A DNA stretch of 58,936 bases, the filler included, from Dugesia japonica (taxonomy: Eukaryota): the NCBI GenBank assembly GCA_001938525.1. It is 5 parts of 5 records of this genome, joined end to end, with 100 filler letters (N's around TTAATTAATTAA, not from the genome) between each part and the next. Parts side by side here need not be neighbours in the genome. Positions count along the whole stretch, not along the records: positions 10,284 to 27,986 come from MQRL01646255.1; positions 28,087 to 37,959 come from MQRL01359510.1; 3 more parts are not named here. One strand, written 5' to 3'. Every line of letters begins with the position of its first letter. The stretch's first letter is position 1. The translations under genes and the position numbers were made by a program. Below are positions 21,831 through 28,087 of the stretch, in pieces. The notes beneath the pieces are model-generated. The model had not been told where the DNA came from. It searched no databases and saw nothing but the letters and a program-made list of their open reading frames with translations.

Positions 21831-22290
21831 ATATTAGTTAAATTCAAAACCTCACAACTCTCCATAAATTTTTCATTGATTATTACAAGTTTTTTATTAA
21901 AATAAAACATGATGAAGAATAATTCACAGTATTCAAACCAAAATCTGAGAAATTTTAATCAAATATATTTTTTAAAAATATCGATTTTTCTTTTTAAAAT
22001 ATTTTATATATCATAATTTCATAAAACATTTTTTATAATTTTGTTGGGGTTCCACCTGATTTGATGATGATAAAAATGTCAGCCGGGGAAAAATGGCCCT
22101 CAGGGGATCCCTTTCAAGAATTTAATCTAACGTCTCTAAATTAGATACTCAGTGCAGATCAGTTGACCTTCGACCTTTACGGGTGGTTCACACTCGTACA
22201 CCTTTGGTTTGGGTCCGAATCTATTTTCCTATTACTTTAATTATTAAATAAATAAACGAAATACTAATAATAAATTATATTGGTTTGTAA

Positions 22291-22652
22291 TTACAATTCA
22301 TCTAAAGCACCCGGGTCTAACCACTGGATGGGATCATCAATTAAATAGCTAAACACGGCTTCGTCGTCATTGTCGTCCCATTGCAAGCATGATACATTGC
22401 CTAATTGACGGGACAGATCTGAGATATAATTCTTTAAAAAATCGATCTTGTTTTGGAGAAGCTGTTTAGTTTGCTACGCCAGGTCTCCCTGTTTCTTAAC
22501 TATTAAATCTAATTTTTTGATTAATCTATTTCTTTTGGATAAGTGCTTCAGGAGAGCCCTCTCGTTCTGTCGTTGGGCATGACGTTATACTAATAATCGT
22601 TGTATCAGGTGGTGGCACCGTCTTAAACTATTTGGGAGTGTGATTCTTGGCA
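22291..22652 (-). pseudogene. Cassette C (copy 2)
   Basis: ttttag|TG CCA AGA ATC...(M)PRITLPNSLRRCHHL...KIDFLKNYISDLSRQLG...QWLDPGALDEL*. Two in-frame stops. Confidence 0.8.
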
Positions 22653-22794
22653 CTAAAATAAAGAATTATTAAATAGATCATAGATCATACTTTATTATAA
22701 ATATGTAACCAGGAAGAAAATTCTGTTTTTTAAAGATAGTCAACAAAATAAGTCATTACAAAGTAAGGAGACATTTATTTACAGACATAAATAG

Positions 22795-23153
22795 TCAGGG
22801 CCGAGAGGTTTGTGTGCCTTTGTCTATCAATAGTGGTTCAAGGGTTATACTTTTCCGTAACTCCAAGATGTCATTAACCAGTCTATTCTCTCAGTCATGG
22901 AGGGACCGGATGATTTCGGCGAAAGATTCGGCTTGGGTCTTCCAAAGCCGATCCTGAGCTTGGGATTCTCCCGCTTCTTTTTGAAACGAAATACACTTGG
23001 TTTTATAGCGTTTTGCTTTGACTTCTGCCATGGATGTGTCCGCCTCCCAACGACGCTTAGCCAGTCGATAAAGCTTCCATGTCATGTCGGAATCTTAGCT
23101 ATCCTCTCGGATTTTCTTTGTTGGAGCGGTAGCATGGTTGAGTGAGGAATGCA
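22795..23153 (-). pseudogene. Cassette B (copy 2), ends IDKGTQTSRP
   Basis: tttatag|TG CAT TCC..., APTKKIREDS, WKLYRLAKRRWEA, LEPLLIDKGTQT. Two in-frame stops. Confidence 0.8.
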
Positions 23154-23307
23154 CTATAAATGAAAAGATAAAATGATGTCTATAATTAAGAAATTCTAAA
23201 TTCAGTGTCTCACAGCATTTAATTGGTTATTATTTTCTGAATTAGTAAACAAAACTGAACTCAAGTTAAGAAAAGACTATTTATTAGTGCCACACAAAAT
23301 TTTAACG

Positions 23308-23738
23308 TTACAATATATTTTCGAGAACGGGGCTGGGGTCTGTATTCTCAGCACTTCCGCTAATTTCTGTGTTACGAATACTCCACAGGTTGTTGTTCAC
23401 AAAAGCTGTTAAATTGGAGAGTAGAGGAACATAATTGGTGTTGATACCTACCAGCAAAGGTCCTTCATTCCATTCGCGAGTAATCTGGCGCATGCCATCT
23501 CTATTTACTGTTGTTGTTGGAACCGCATGATATACGGCCCTGGTGCGATCAGGACCATTCCAAGTGTAATATGAGTGGCTATCGTTTGTGTCCGACTCGC
23601 GTTCATCATTTGCATCTTCACTGGGTAGATTGGCCTGGTCGACCAGAACACTGGCATCTCTATTATGGGGATTCTTATACCGTTTGAATACCGTCCAACC
23701 CGAAGTGCGATCTAGCAAAATTTCTCATTTGTACTCCA
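23308..23738 (-). pseudogene. Cassette A (copy 2), ~143 codons
   Basis: tactag|a ATG GAG TAC AAA TGA (Trp in copy 1), then open to the end. TVFKRYKNPHNRDASVLVDQ is conserved with copy 1. Confidence 0.78.
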
Positions 23739-23900
23739 TTCTAGTATTATATTTCCGACATTTATCAACAATATTTAAATACATTAAAATACAATGGGAC
23801 AAATTGTAATGAAAAAGTTAATAAAATGAACTCAGTCTGAAGATTTAATTTATTCTCTATTTTATTTAAACTAAATATCAGAAAACAAAAAACCGGATGA

Positions 23901-25239: not shown

Positions 25240-25275
25240 GCTTACTCGTAGATAATTCTTTCATTGCAACGAGGA
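25240..25275 (-). promoter_or_regulatory. 3' end of predicted non-coding leader exon and splice donor (CTACGA|GTAAGC)
   Basis: CTCGTTGCA...CGA|GTA is conserved with copy 3 (5701-5732). Canonical donor; the exon ends in A. Confidence 0.6.
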
Positions 25276-25554
25276 ATAGAACAGCACAGAATTAAATTTG
25301 AATTATTTCTTCTGGTAGTCGAACAATGAATGCTTGTTTCTTCTAGAAAAACAATTTTTTAACTGTCAATTGAAATGAGTAGACACTAATAGTTAACCAC
25401 TGAAAGATTGCTGAGTATTTCTCCAATAGTTTTTTTTACAAAAATACTTTGCGGATTTACTACTCGATTACTGAGTTAAAGTTTAGTTTTTTGAGTGAGT
25501 TTTTGTCTAAAATTTTGGGGGTTTATATACGATTTTCTGATGCAACTCGGCATC

Positions 25555-25795
25555 ATTGTCATTGGTTGCTATTTTTAGTTCAAAATGCATATTTTCNATT
25601 GGTTCTGGTGTTGATTATTCAAATTTTTGATGGATTTCCTGAACTTTTATTGGCCTCTATTTTTAAATCAACATGTAATGATCAGGTCTTTGTTTCATTT
25701 TCTTTTCTTAACACCTTATTGGCCCAATCTTTGAACCCTTGCAGAACCCCTCTTGATGGTGATATAATTTTCCGGTGGCGAAATCCTATTGCCCA
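25555..25795 (-). promoter_or_regulatory. CCAAT-box array (putative promoter of the element)
   Basis: ATTGG at about 25561, 25598, 25649 and 25718. Similar arrays occur at the equivalent position in copies 0, 3, 5 and at 1380-1471. Confidence 0.55.
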
Positions 25796-26271
25796 GGTAC
25801 TTTTCCTTTTTAGTTTTTGTTAATAACAGCCTCTGCAATTTTCCTGCGCAGAGTTATTCGTATAAAACGGATTTTTGACTAATTTTACTTCGTTTTATTT
25901 CAGAATTAAATAATATTTTTCTGGTAATTAATTATTTTACCATAATGATTTTCTTGACTTTTATTATTAATTTAATAATTCCTTTTAATTCCCAATATTG
26001 CTGTATGCAAGTTTTATTCACCCGATTCCTTATATAAATCTTCACTTTTATTTTATTCTTTTCTAATGGTTTTTTTCCTTATATCCTAACCATGATCTTA
26101 ATTGTTTCTACTTTCGAATTCCATTATTGATGATTATAATAGCTCTGCCGTTCTTCTTTTCTAATTTGGGCCTTTGGCCTTATTTCCCTTTTTAACGGGT
26201 GTTTCTCCCCAACAATTTTATAATTTTCATAATATAAAATGTCGATTTTACTTTTAAAATATTTTATATAT

Positions 26272-27804
26272 TGTTGCTGTTTTATCTAGGAGGGCTGATT
26301 TTTTTTAAGATTAAGTCTAGGTTTGGCCTAATAAAACACCGCTAAGAATTTAATCTGGTGTCCCCAAAAACCCAGATCTTCGGAATGGAGCCGTTGACTC
26401 GCAACCCGTAGTACGAGTGCGTGCTTGCATTCCTTTAGTTTGGGCTCATATTTTATGATTCTCGCTCAATTTTAGAGACACACTTATTACTATCAATCGT
26501 TAACGTATTAAATTTCAGTTTATGAATCATTTATTAGATTTTATTTTATCAGTTAGTTTAATTAACTATAATTTTTTCTAATTCGTGGCTATGCATATTT
26601 AACTGAGTTCGTTTAATTACTACCTTTAGTTTAAAAATCAATAACCTATATTTTTACAGTTATAAAGAACAAAAGAATTTAACAAGTGAAAAATATATTC
26701 AATTACCAAAACTTTCACTTGTTATACATCAATTTAATAATTAGGACAATCAATAAAACTAACGTGGTCTGGATCCCGATCCAAAGCAAGCACAATATTT
26801 AAATTGTCATTTCCTCGGTGGATATTAATGATTCAAGGGGTCCATCATAATTTACCATATTCGGTTCAAGTCGGAAATCGTTGCTTCCAAACTTTATATG
26901 GATAAAAAATTACCGTTAAGATTCTCAATTTCAGTAAATTTTCAATAACGAAGATTGATTAAGATTGCTTTTTTTTGTAAAAACTTATGAAAATTTCATC
27001 GGTATTTATACCGAGTTTCAGATACATCCTCGTTCTTTCTATTGGTCAACGGGAGTCGTATGATTTTTCTAACGTTCTTATTGGCTTGATCGTCACATGA
27101 GTACTTTTTATTGGTGGTTATTTGGGATTCCACAATTATTGGTCAATCTTCAAACCCTTATGACTTCTTTCTGGATCTTGTTACGATTTTCTGATTTGTA
27201 TTTTTGAATTCCCCGATTTTTTCTTGTCCGTAAATTTTAATCTGCCAATTTTAACTCAAGCATAAACCTTCATTTTTCTTATTTTTGACAAATAATTTAT
27301 TTTCTGCTTCAAAATAAATCATTTTAATTCACATGATTTATTTTATTTAAATAAATAAATTAGTTTATTTTATTTTCTTCATAAAATTTAATTATATGTT
27401 CATTTCTTTGTTCTTCTGATCTAAATTTAATTTAATTTNNNNNNNNNNNNNNNNNNNNNNNNNNNNNNNNNNNNNNNNNNNNNNNNNNNNNNNNNNNNNN
27501 NNNNNNNNNNNNNNNNNNNNNNNNNNNNNNNNNNNNNNNNNNNNNNNNNNNNNNNNNNNNNNNNNNNNNNNNNNNNNNNNNNNNNNNNNNNNNNNNNNNN
27601 NNNNNNNNNNNNNNNNNNNNNNNNNNNNNNNNNNNNNNNNNNNNNNNNNNNNNNNNNNNNNNNNNNNNNNNNNNNNNNNNNNNNNNNNTGGTCTGACTCC
27701 TTCTTTTGTCTGTATTCTTCGTTTTCCTTCTTGTGACATTCTTTTGAATTTTGAGTTTACCTATCGCTGGTTTATTTTCTATTTTCAGGTGTTTCCCCCC
27801 AACA
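26272..27804 (-). mobile_element. Novel element copy 5, ~1.5-kb ORF-less derivative, TSD ATAT
   Basis: TGTTG...CCCCAACA with ATAT at 26268-26271 and 27805-27808. Hairpin at 26353-26377 and ATTGG at 27041/27080/27110/27138. Contains an N gap. Confidence 0.8.
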
Positions 27805-28087
27805 ATATCATAATTTCAAAACAATTTTTATACTATTATAATTTTACATAATATAAGATATCGATCCTGATTTTAAAATACTTTAATATCATAAAATAAT
27901 CTTTTATAATTTTTGTGAGGTAAATTAAATAGACAGTTTGATTCGGGGAATTTTTTTGTGGCAAATCAATAAAAGAATAATAATTTNNNNNNNNNNNNNN
28001 NNNNNNNNNNNNNNNNNNNNNNNNNNNNNNTTAATTAATTAANNNNNNNNNNNNNNNNNNNNNNNNNNNNNNNNNNNNNNNNNNNNC

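What the first reader, a model, noticed from the sequence alone, without database searches (positions are those of the whole stretch)
21960..27920. Element copies insert into the same ~90-bp AT-rich tandem repeat (target-site preference)
Seen: removing copy 5 and one ATAT restores TTTTAAAATATTTTATATATCATAATTTCA, which is the uninterrupted sequence at about 21992-22021. Removing copy 2 and one ATTT restores a unit matching about 27826-27865 (TTATAATTTT.CATAATATAA.AT.TCGAT). So two independent insertions sit 57 bp apart, in the same orientation, in one minisatellite. A TGTGAGG at 27914, at the equivalent site of the next unit, may be a third. Copies 3 and 1 are likewise head-to-tail, 64 bp apart (6541-6604). 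The reconstructed empty sites also validate the element boundaries.
Basis: seen in the sequence. Interest (0 to 1): 0.72.

Follow-up and report, generated by a model that had tools for sequence, protein, structure and literature searches.

The report
Nested LTR-like insertions in AT-rich duplication
Two related jumping-gene remnants really did land 57 bases apart in a short AT-rich duplication, but this looks like the ordinary taste of such elements for AT-rich, transposon-crowded DNA rather than targeting of that repeat; the larger one unexpectedly carries four small genes with no known relatives.

Summary
Both insertions are real. A 4,173-bp element (22042-26214, target duplication ATTT) and a 1,533-bp relative (26272-27804, ATAT), both TGTTG...CAACA, sit 57 bp apart. 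Removing them restores 2.5 copies of an 82-84-bp unit (86% matches; not ~90 bp). Targeting of that unit is not supported. The two insertions hit different phases (59-62 and 28-31). None of 4 other flanks resembles the unit after allowing for 8 tests, including the 6541-6604 spacer. TGTGAGG at 27914 starts an unrelated, far more abundant repeat, not a third copy. What all copies share is an ATAT-like 4-mer (6 of 7 within one mismatch) in AT-rich DNA, plus nesting in each other: the known behaviour of Gypsy-type integrases. The elements are most likely solo LTRs (no long TIRs, no enzyme; parent element not seen). Close spacing exceeds a crude chance model (P about 0.004 for two pairs), so a local hotspot remains open. 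The odder result is that the large type carries four orphan ORFs under purifying selection, two of which look like alternative spliced exons. Host: an AT-rich animal, lineage not determined.

The parts
21980..22041 (+). AT-rich unit 1, first 62 nt; last 4 nt (22038-22041, ATTT) are the left target-site duplication of copy 2
22042..26214 (-).
22042..22254 (-). About 210-bp terminal block shared by A and B types (U5/R-like)
   Evidence: profile of 5 ends finds these 5 and no other place in the window; alignment
22294..22652 (-). ORF d, coiled-coil-like, opens at a pyrimidine tract + AG|TGCC acceptor (4 of 4 copies), no ATG; decayed by stops in this copy
22798..23153 (-). ORF c, predicted single long helix, acceptor-like start, ends in a K-x-T-Q-T/I motif; decayed by stops in this copy
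23311..23738 (-). ORF b, about 140 aa, own ATG, no family
23904..24095 (-). ORF a, about 55-60 aa, no family
25522..25722 (-). TATA box (25522) with four CCAAT boxes upstream: U3-like promoter of copy 2
   Evidence: motif scan; function inferred
26215..26271 (+). 57-bp spacer: right duplication of copy 2 (ATTT, 26215-26218), rest of unit 1, start of unit 2 (26241), left duplication of copy 5 (ATAT, 26268-26271)
26272..27804 (-).
27805..27913 (+). Right duplication of copy 5 (ATAT, 27805-27808), rest of unit 2, partial unit 3 (from 27860)
27914..27986 (.). Start of an unrelated, extremely abundant repeat (TGTGAGG...), cut by the contig end; not a copy of the A/B family
21832..21905 (.). End of another abundant repeat (133-200 contigs per run with loose ends; flanks before 21832 heterogeneous); holds CCTCACA, the inverse of TGTGAGG
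20900..21830 (+). Decayed Gypsy-like protease/RT remnant on which the nest sits
   Evidence: Pfam RVT_1 E 1.3e-6, 28.7 bits, just under the 29.6 cut-off; tblastx to the remnant at 49400-52100
1..987 (+). B-type copy in opposite orientation, inserted into the next B copy; cut by contig start
988..2084 (-). B-type copy, interrupted by the inverted copy; its right end lies in the ORF d end of copy 1 (flank ATAT)
2085..6540 (-).
6541..6604 (+). 64-bp spacer between copies 1 and 3; not related to the 82-84-bp unit
6605..10183 (-).
45780..46346 (-). A-type fragment (terminal block and ORF d), isolated, flank ATAC

Best explanation
A retroviral-type (DDE) integrase inserted two related but distinct elements independently, each with a 4-bp staggered cut, into a short AT-rich duplication that was already part of a nest of other repeats. 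Site choice follows a weak ATAT-like target motif in AT-rich DNA, with survival or accumulation in a transposon-dense patch; it does not read the 82-84-bp unit. The elements are most likely solo LTRs left by LTR-LTR recombination of Ty3/Gypsy-type retrotransposons. SHOWN: boundaries, duplications, empty array, different phases, unrelated other flanks, ATAT bias, nesting, lack of TIRs and enzymes, selection on the ORFs. INFERRED: integrase type, solo-LTR origin, promoter function, splicing.
For: 4-bp duplications in 2 of 2 complete copies. Target 4-mers of the 7 copies: ATAT x3, ATTT, TTAT, ATAC, GTAA; background ATAT 1.3%, within one mismatch 12.5%; P 7e-5 and 2e-5, motif chosen after seeing the data. 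The array is 89% AT and 3.8-fold richer in ATAT than the window (5.0% vs 1.3%). 8 of 9 terminal flanks are at least 83% AT, which 19% of window tiles reach. Two copies sit inside other family copies, and the family covers 26% of the window. ATAT targets with 4-bp duplications are documented for the Drosophila 412 clade (low information) and Idefix clade (PMC3276498, passages). TGTNR ends are typical of Gypsy (PMC2836005, passages). LTR-like polarity: a TATA box with a CCAAT cluster on the minus strand near one end in 4 of 5 copies holding that region, and a conserved ~210-bp block at the other end. No Pfam family at E<=0.001 in 18 frames read through with X. Contigs in 3 of 3 DNA runs cross the copy-5 site without the element, and the unit has summed depth 80-1,400 against 7-25 for single contigs, so it also occurs elsewhere.
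Against: No two-LTR parent with PBS, PPT and gag-pol was seen, so solo-LTR status is untested (no genome). If the TATA box marks the start, copy 2 would have about 3.5 kb with four genes between start and end, whereas retroviral R regions are 15-250 nt (PMC12789967, passages). For 5 of 7 copies only one flank is visible, so their 4-mers are not verified duplications. Two non-nested pairs at 64 bp or less are rarer than the ATAT/AT model predicts (P 0.004; one pair 0.10), so something more may act. Two flanks score borderline against the unit (23 and 39 of 500 shuffles, among 8 tests).
Confidence: 0.62

Rival explanations
1. The family targets the 82-84-bp AT-rich unit itself.
For: Two insertions within 225 bp of one array. 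The unit is itself repeated elsewhere in the genome, so it could be a recurring target. The junction at 27914 lies near the phase of copy 2 (position 55 of a unit 3 that is 6-7 nt shorter).
Against: Phases differ (59-62 vs 28-31). 5 of 7 copies lie outside the array. 0 of 4 other flanks match the unit after allowing for 8 tests, and the unit has no other copy in the window (best outside tile 68.5 vs 74-192 at the array). The 27914 sequence is not this family.
Confidence: 0.07
2. Integration is steered to about 60 bp from the end of a sibling element (tethering to a protein or chromatin feature at the element end), giving head-to-tail pairs whatever the spacer sequence.
For: Two pairs, same orientation, spacers 57 and 64 bp with unrelated sequence; simulation P 0.004 for two such pairs.
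Against: n = 2; same orientation twice has P 0.25; the window was picked for this feature; the simulation is crude (contig 1 left out of the target space). Two other neighbours are plain nested insertions, one in opposite orientation, and one copy is isolated.
Confidence: 0.12
3. The elements are not solo LTRs but self-contained non-autonomous DNA elements moved by a Gypsy-integrase-like transposase (Ginger-type); the B type is an A-like element without the gene cassette.
For: TGTNR ends and 4-bp duplications are also Ginger features. No PBS-like TGG after 0 of 5 ends and no purine tract before 0 of 4. A and B share both ends but differ in the interior. A long gene-bearing interior is odd for an LTR.
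Against: Terminal inverted repeats are 5-8 bp, against 40-270 bp (Ginger1) and 50-180 bp (Ginger2). The 6-bp targets TATATC and AATTTT fit neither CCGG/CCGT nor RTATAY. Lack of PBS and PPT is also expected for solo LTRs.
Confidence: 0.17
4. Segmental duplication with shared breakpoints, or an assembly artefact.
For: Fragmented assembly with gaps; none of the contig pieces listed spans a junction.
Against: The two elements differ in length (4,173 vs 1,533 bp) and share only a weak 154-bp match (E 5.5e-4). Each has its own duplication and phase, and the emptied site is a 30/30 match to the neighbouring unit.
Confidence: 0.02

Closest known systems
Solo LTRs of Ty3/Gypsy retrotransposons with ATAT targets (Drosophila 412 clade: 412, blood, mdg1, Stalker2, Tabor; Idefix clade: 297, Quasimodo, Transpac; PMC3276498, passages read)
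   Same: TG...CA ends, 4-bp duplication, palindromic ATAT-centred low-information target, AT-rich flanks
   Different: LTRs of 1.5 and 4.2 kb; the large type holds four selected orphan ORFs downstream of its TATA box; no parent element seen
Burro/GYPSM1 giant Gypsy elements of dugesiid planarians and plant Ogre elements (PMC6431247, section 7 read whole)
   Same: Very long LTR-like units (Ogre LTRs 1.9-6.5 kb), accessory ORFs, AT-rich repeat-laden animal genome (Burro)
   Different: No sequence comparison was possible and the host lineage is not determined. The section read places extra ORFs in the internal region or upstream of ORF1 and mentions none inside the LTR. The primary Burro paper was not held.
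Ginger1/Ginger2 DNA transposons (PMC2836005, passages read)
   Same: TGTNR ends, 4-bp duplication, AT-rich target (Ginger2)
   Different: No 40-270-bp TIRs, no transposase, target not RTATAY or CCGG
Tandem TE dimers by double insertion (PMC5932611, passages read)
   Same: Neighbouring copies arising from insertion-site preference
   Different: There the target duplication lies in the junction; here 57-64 bp of host DNA and two different duplications separate two subfamilies
LTR-encoded accessory genes of complex retroviruses (MMTV sag and rem exon 2, HIV nef in U3; PMC12789967, passages read)
   Same: Spliced accessory ORFs lying within an LTR
   Different: Those lie in U3, upstream of the start site; here four ORFs lie between a TATA box and the conserved terminal block, and have no homologues

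Membership tests
Ty3/Gypsy solo LTR | TG...CA ends with TGTNR pattern and short inverted repeat | tested here: met
   TGTTG at 4 of 5 left ends (fifth TATTG), CAACA at 3 of 4 right ends (fourth CAACT); pattern
Ty3/Gypsy solo LTR | 4-bp target-site duplication around the single LTR | tested here: met
   2 of 2 complete copies
Ty3/Gypsy solo LTR | U3 promoter, R, U5 polarity | tested here: inconclusive
   TATA + CCAAT cluster in 4 of 5 copies and a conserved terminal block. RNA run X13 is strand-skewed over the B type (74 vs 22 in 26274-26490), but 98% of laid reads run on unlike and library strandedness is not established. Start site not mapped.
Ty3/Gypsy solo LTR | Same sequence occurs twice around gag-pol with PBS and PPT in a parent element | not testable with these tools
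   No genome held; none of the 7 window copies adjoins a PBS or PPT
Ginger1/Ginger2 DNA transposon | TIRs of 40-270 bp | tested here: not met
   5-8 bp only
Ginger1/Ginger2 DNA transposon | Target CCGG/CCGT (Ginger1) or RTATAY (Ginger2) | tested here: not met
   TATATC and AATTTT at the two complete copies
Ginger1/Ginger2 DNA transposon | Integrase-like transposase | tested here: not met
   0 Pfam families in 18 frames; non-autonomous copies would also lack it
Burro (GYPSM1) LTR | Sequence similarity to Burro LTRs | not testable with these tools
   No such sequences available; primary paper not held
Burro (GYPSM1) LTR | Host in Dugesiidae | tested here: inconclusive
   The window's U2AF65 has named relatives only at about 41-55% identity across many animal phyla; the closest (89%, 72%) are unnamed
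Repeat-targeting element (R1-type or satellite-specific) | Insertion at a fixed position of the target unit | tested here: not met
   positions 59-62 and 28-31
Repeat-targeting element (R1-type or satellite-specific) | Most copies lie in the target repeat | tested here: not met
   2 of 7 window copies; 0 of 4 other flanks after allowing for 8 tests; genome-wide count not possible
Tandem dimer by double insertion / TRIM-type array | Shared duplication at the junction, or PBS and PPT in the spacer between like LTRs | tested here: not met
   57-bp spacer is host repeat with two different duplications; no PBS or PPT

The most novel reading that the evidence does not exclude
The 4.2-kb type is a self-contained mobile cassette, or an LTR unlike described ones, that carries its own promoter and four orphan genes kept by selection. 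Two of them are alternative spliced 3' exons, and one is a long helix ending in a candidate dynein-light-chain (LC8) motif. Its integration complex is also steered to about 60 bp from a sibling's end, so that mixed head-to-tail arrays of gene-bearing and gene-less types build up.
Probability: 0.12. Interest if true: 0.7.

Novelty: new variant of a known kind. Interest (0 to 1): 0.36.

Why it matters
The targeting claim itself reduces to a known integrase preference and needs no new mechanism. The locus is still a clean demonstration of boundaries for an abundant family that matched nothing in the searches run here. If a parent element confirms that a 4.2-kb LTR carries four selected, spliced accessory genes downstream of its promoter, every solo LTR would be a complete expression unit. 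Recombination would then spread accessory genes without the retrotransposon, which could matter for host cell biology (a TQT motif suggests dynein-light-chain binding). A true 60-bp sibling-tethering rule would be a new targeting mode, but rests on two pairs.

Tried and rejected
No whole genome was held, so flanks could not be collected. Rfam: 0 matches at E<=1 in the window; no tRNA genes. Homologue searches for the cassette found nothing usable. ORF d: 0 of 28 candidates at E<=0.01, lengths 72-230 aa only. ORF c profile against 1.84 billion representatives: 1 hit, a titin-like protein whose score is summed over 15 identical Ig repeats (best pairwise E 0.023), rejected. ESM Atlas: ORF c best 0.92 with low recognition and 130 of 256 shared features, generic coiled coils; ORF b no usable hit. 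Pfam and PHROGs: only weak coiled-coil matches, Pfam ones below cut-off. Exact look-ups: 0 of 3 proteins in the collection. Structure: ORF b pLDDT 38, unusable; ORF c one helix, pLDDT 89, pTM 0.46, so no fold search was run. The idea that the AT-rich tail after the RT remnant at 49398-49570 is the same unit was rejected (45 of 1000 shuffles; 6% of 312 AT-matched tiles score as well). RT-likeness of 21840-21905, seen by eye, found no support in PDB. No hairpin at 21830-21905 or 27900-27986 that would mark a Helitron end (z -0.07 to 2.0). Earlier findings: none. Literature searches for ORFs inside Gypsy LTRs or for this family (listings only) showed no title on point; most subscription papers are not covered, and the supplements of the primary Burro paper, not seen, may describe such LTRs and their targets.
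Full report
Setting. The window is five contigs joined by 100-nt linkers. The finding lies at the end of contig 2, which stops at 27986. The DNA is from an AT-rich animal (U2AF65, CBP/p300 and HSA-domain genes). Its lineage is not determined: named U2AF65 relatives are only about 41-55% identical. Public DNA runs of the organism give 0.7-0.9 Gb of contigs. A planarian is my guess from genome size and base composition, not a result. No genome was held.

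Observation. Copy 2 is 22042-26214, flanked by ATTT on both sides; copy 5 is 26272-27804, flanked by ATAT; 4 bp is the only length that fits both. Removing copy 5 and one ATAT gives a 30/30 match to 21992-22021. With both removed, TRF finds 2.5 copies of period 81-82 at 86% matches, and anchor-to-anchor lengths are 84 and 82 bp. Unit similarity beats 500 of 500 dinucleotide shuffles for all three unit pairs. So the insertions, their boundaries and the array are real, but the unit is 82-84 bp and the array about 225 bp. Segmental duplication is excluded: the elements differ in length, share only a weak 154-bp match, and have their own duplications.

Is the unit the target? The evidence says no. 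The insertions are at unit positions 59-62 and 28-31. Profiles of the element ends find 5 left and 4 right ends in the window, belonging to 7 copies; 2 of the 7 are in the array. The 64-bp spacer at 6541-6604 is unrelated to the unit (455 of 500 shuffles score as well). The three other flanks give 39, 23 and 342 of 500 on the plus strand and nothing on the minus strand, which is not significant over 8 tests. TGTGAGG at 27914 is a real junction, but what follows does not resemble the family's end (no profile hit; 204-395 of 500 shuffles). Its summed contig depth is 0.9-1.1 million, against 89-175 thousand in the two best B-type bins and 54-600 in the A-type interior (the tool warns that depth is no copy number, so I use it only as a ranking).

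What the sites do share. The 4-mers next to the 7 copies are ATAT three times, ATTT, TTAT, ATAC and GTAA. ATAT makes up 1.3% of window 4-mers and one-mismatch variants 12.5%, so 3 of 7 and 6 of 7 have P 7e-5 and 2e-5. The motif was chosen after the fact, and 5 of 7 sites are seen from one side only. Flanks average 87% AT against 71%. The array is 89% AT and 3.8-fold enriched in ATAT, so it is a good substrate for any such integrase. This matches Gypsy elements of the Drosophila 412 and Idefix clades, which make 4-bp duplications at ATAT (PMC3276498, passages). Copies also nest: in contig 1 an inverted B copy sits in a B copy, which sits in the ORF d end of copy 1, which also holds a TIR element. 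The array itself lies between a Gypsy-like RT remnant, the end of another abundant repeat at 21832, and the repeat at 27914.

Empty arrays. In 3 of 3 DNA runs, contigs pass from 26271 (or 26268) to 27818 without copy 5, at depth 7-21, with 10-14 slightly different letters between; others join 21988 to 27819. Summed depth on the unit is 605-1,395 at 21939-21941 and 80-398 at 27816. Element-free units therefore exist, more likely as paralogues than as the empty allele. No joint that skips exactly copy 2 was among the 15 shown (97 hidden), and no loose ends at the family's termini were among the 24 shown (4,211 hidden), so flanks could not be counted.

What speaks against my reading. Under a model that weights sites by ATAT-likeness and AT content, two non-nested pairs within 64 bp have P 0.004, one pair 0.10, and two nested copies 0.17. 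The model is crude and the window was picked for this feature, but a local hotspot or tethering to a sibling's end is not excluded. The pairs are not double-insertion dimers in the sense of PMC5932611 (passages), because no shared duplication lies in the junction.

What the elements are. Both types start TGTTG and end CAACA with 5-8 bp of inverted repeat, share a ~210-bp block at one end and a GTGTTT..CCCCAACA motif at the other. Both have a TATA box with a CCAAT cluster on the minus strand 500-800 bp from that end (4 of 5 copies). No enzyme domain was found in 18 frames. Ginger transposons need 40-270-bp TIRs and target CCGG or RTATAY (PMC2836005, passages); neither is met. Solo LTRs flanked by 4-bp duplications are the usual residue of LTR-LTR recombination (PMC4558846, passages), and fit best. 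The defining test, a two-LTR parent, could not be run; no copy adjoins a PBS or PPT (0 of 5 and 0 of 4 ends), as expected for solo LTRs but also for DNA elements. In RNA run X13 the B type is strand-skewed, as a minus-strand promoter would predict in a dUTP library, but 98% of 919 laid reads run on unlike the window and the A-type ORFs have depth 0-5; this is weak.

The cassette. The A type carries four ORFs on the minus strand. Copies 2 and 3 are only 58% identical in DNA, yet differences fall on third codon positions in 46-53% of cases (ORF c 26/27/60, 30/26/62, 32/27/58; ORF d 50/24/73). The frames were thus under selection while the subfamilies diverged, and the stops look like later decay (inference). 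ORF d opens at a pyrimidine tract + AG|TGCC in 4 of 4 copies, and ORF c at a similar site in 3 of 3 (one with a mismatch), both without ATG. I infer alternative 3' exons of a shared leader. ORF c is predicted as one helix ending in a TQT-type motif. No homologue was found. Retroviral precedents for ORFs in an LTR lie in U3, and R regions are 15-250 nt (PMC12789967, passages), so a cassette between TATA box and terminal block is unusual. Long LTRs and accessory ORFs are known from Ogre and Burro (PMC6431247, section 7 read). PMC8532177 and PMC11410931 (passages) have no mention of solo LTRs. The primary Burro paper and its supplements were not held and may cover such LTRs.

Verdict. The finding as posed is ordinary. 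The gene-bearing LTR-like element lifts it to a new variant of a known kind; interest 0.36.

Noticed in passing
window 22294-24095, 6863-8688, 2445-3070, 46009-46321 (minus strand): Four-ORF cassette under purifying selection: third codon positions carry 46-53% of differences between copies (ORF c P 5e-5 to 8e-4, ORF d 5e-6, ORF b 0.05, ORF a 0.07). ORFs c and d open at conserved acceptor-like sites without ATG. No homologues found.
   Followed up: yes
window 22804-22821, 7383-7400, 2721-2738 (minus strand, approximate): ORF c ends in D-K-x-T-Q-T (2 copies) or D-K-T-T-Q-I (1 copy), resembling the TQT anchor of LC8 partners with aspartate at -4; the source paper warns that many TQT peptides do not bind (PMC6607443, passages).
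   Followed up: partly
window 27914-27986: Summed contig depth about 0.9-1.1 million at 27937-27951 against 7-25 for single contigs: one of the most abundant repeats of this genome; class unknown.
   Followed up: partly
window 21832-21905: 174-200 contigs per DNA run begin at 21832 with heterogeneous flanks, yet the stretch looks by eye like a continuation of the RT remnant. CCTCACA here is the inverse of TGTGAGG at 27914, and one contig per run joins 21852 to 27912 (21-letter side, weak). Possibly the two ends of a MITE-like host element; unexplained.
   Followed up: partly
window 4530-5676: 1.15-kb element with 217-bp terminal inverted repeats (92% identical) inserted in copy 1.
   Followed up: no
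window 10184-10283, 27987-28086, 37960-38059, 49298-49397: 100-nt N/TTAATTAATTAA/N linkers: the window is five separate contigs, so relations across linkers mean nothing.
   Followed up: yes
window 31261-32700, 38694-39194, 39723-44358: Intron-poor host genes: U2AF65 (one 479-codon frame with a gap), an HSA-domain protein, and CBP/p300 in a few large exons.
   Followed up: partly
window 49400-52100 (-), 20900-21830 (+), 33800-34200 (+): Three decayed Gypsy-like gag/protease/RT remnants; two break off at about the same place just after the RT core. None adjoins an A/B-type end.
   Followed up: partly
window 47700-49297 and 57100-58936 (minus strand): Decayed coding-like stretches with no Pfam match; 57373-57653 is a 141-bp duplication at 98% that may be an assembly overlap.
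   Followed up: partly
window 28375-29200, 10284-11010: AT-rich palindromic and dispersed repeats at contig starts (MITE-like).
   Followed up: no
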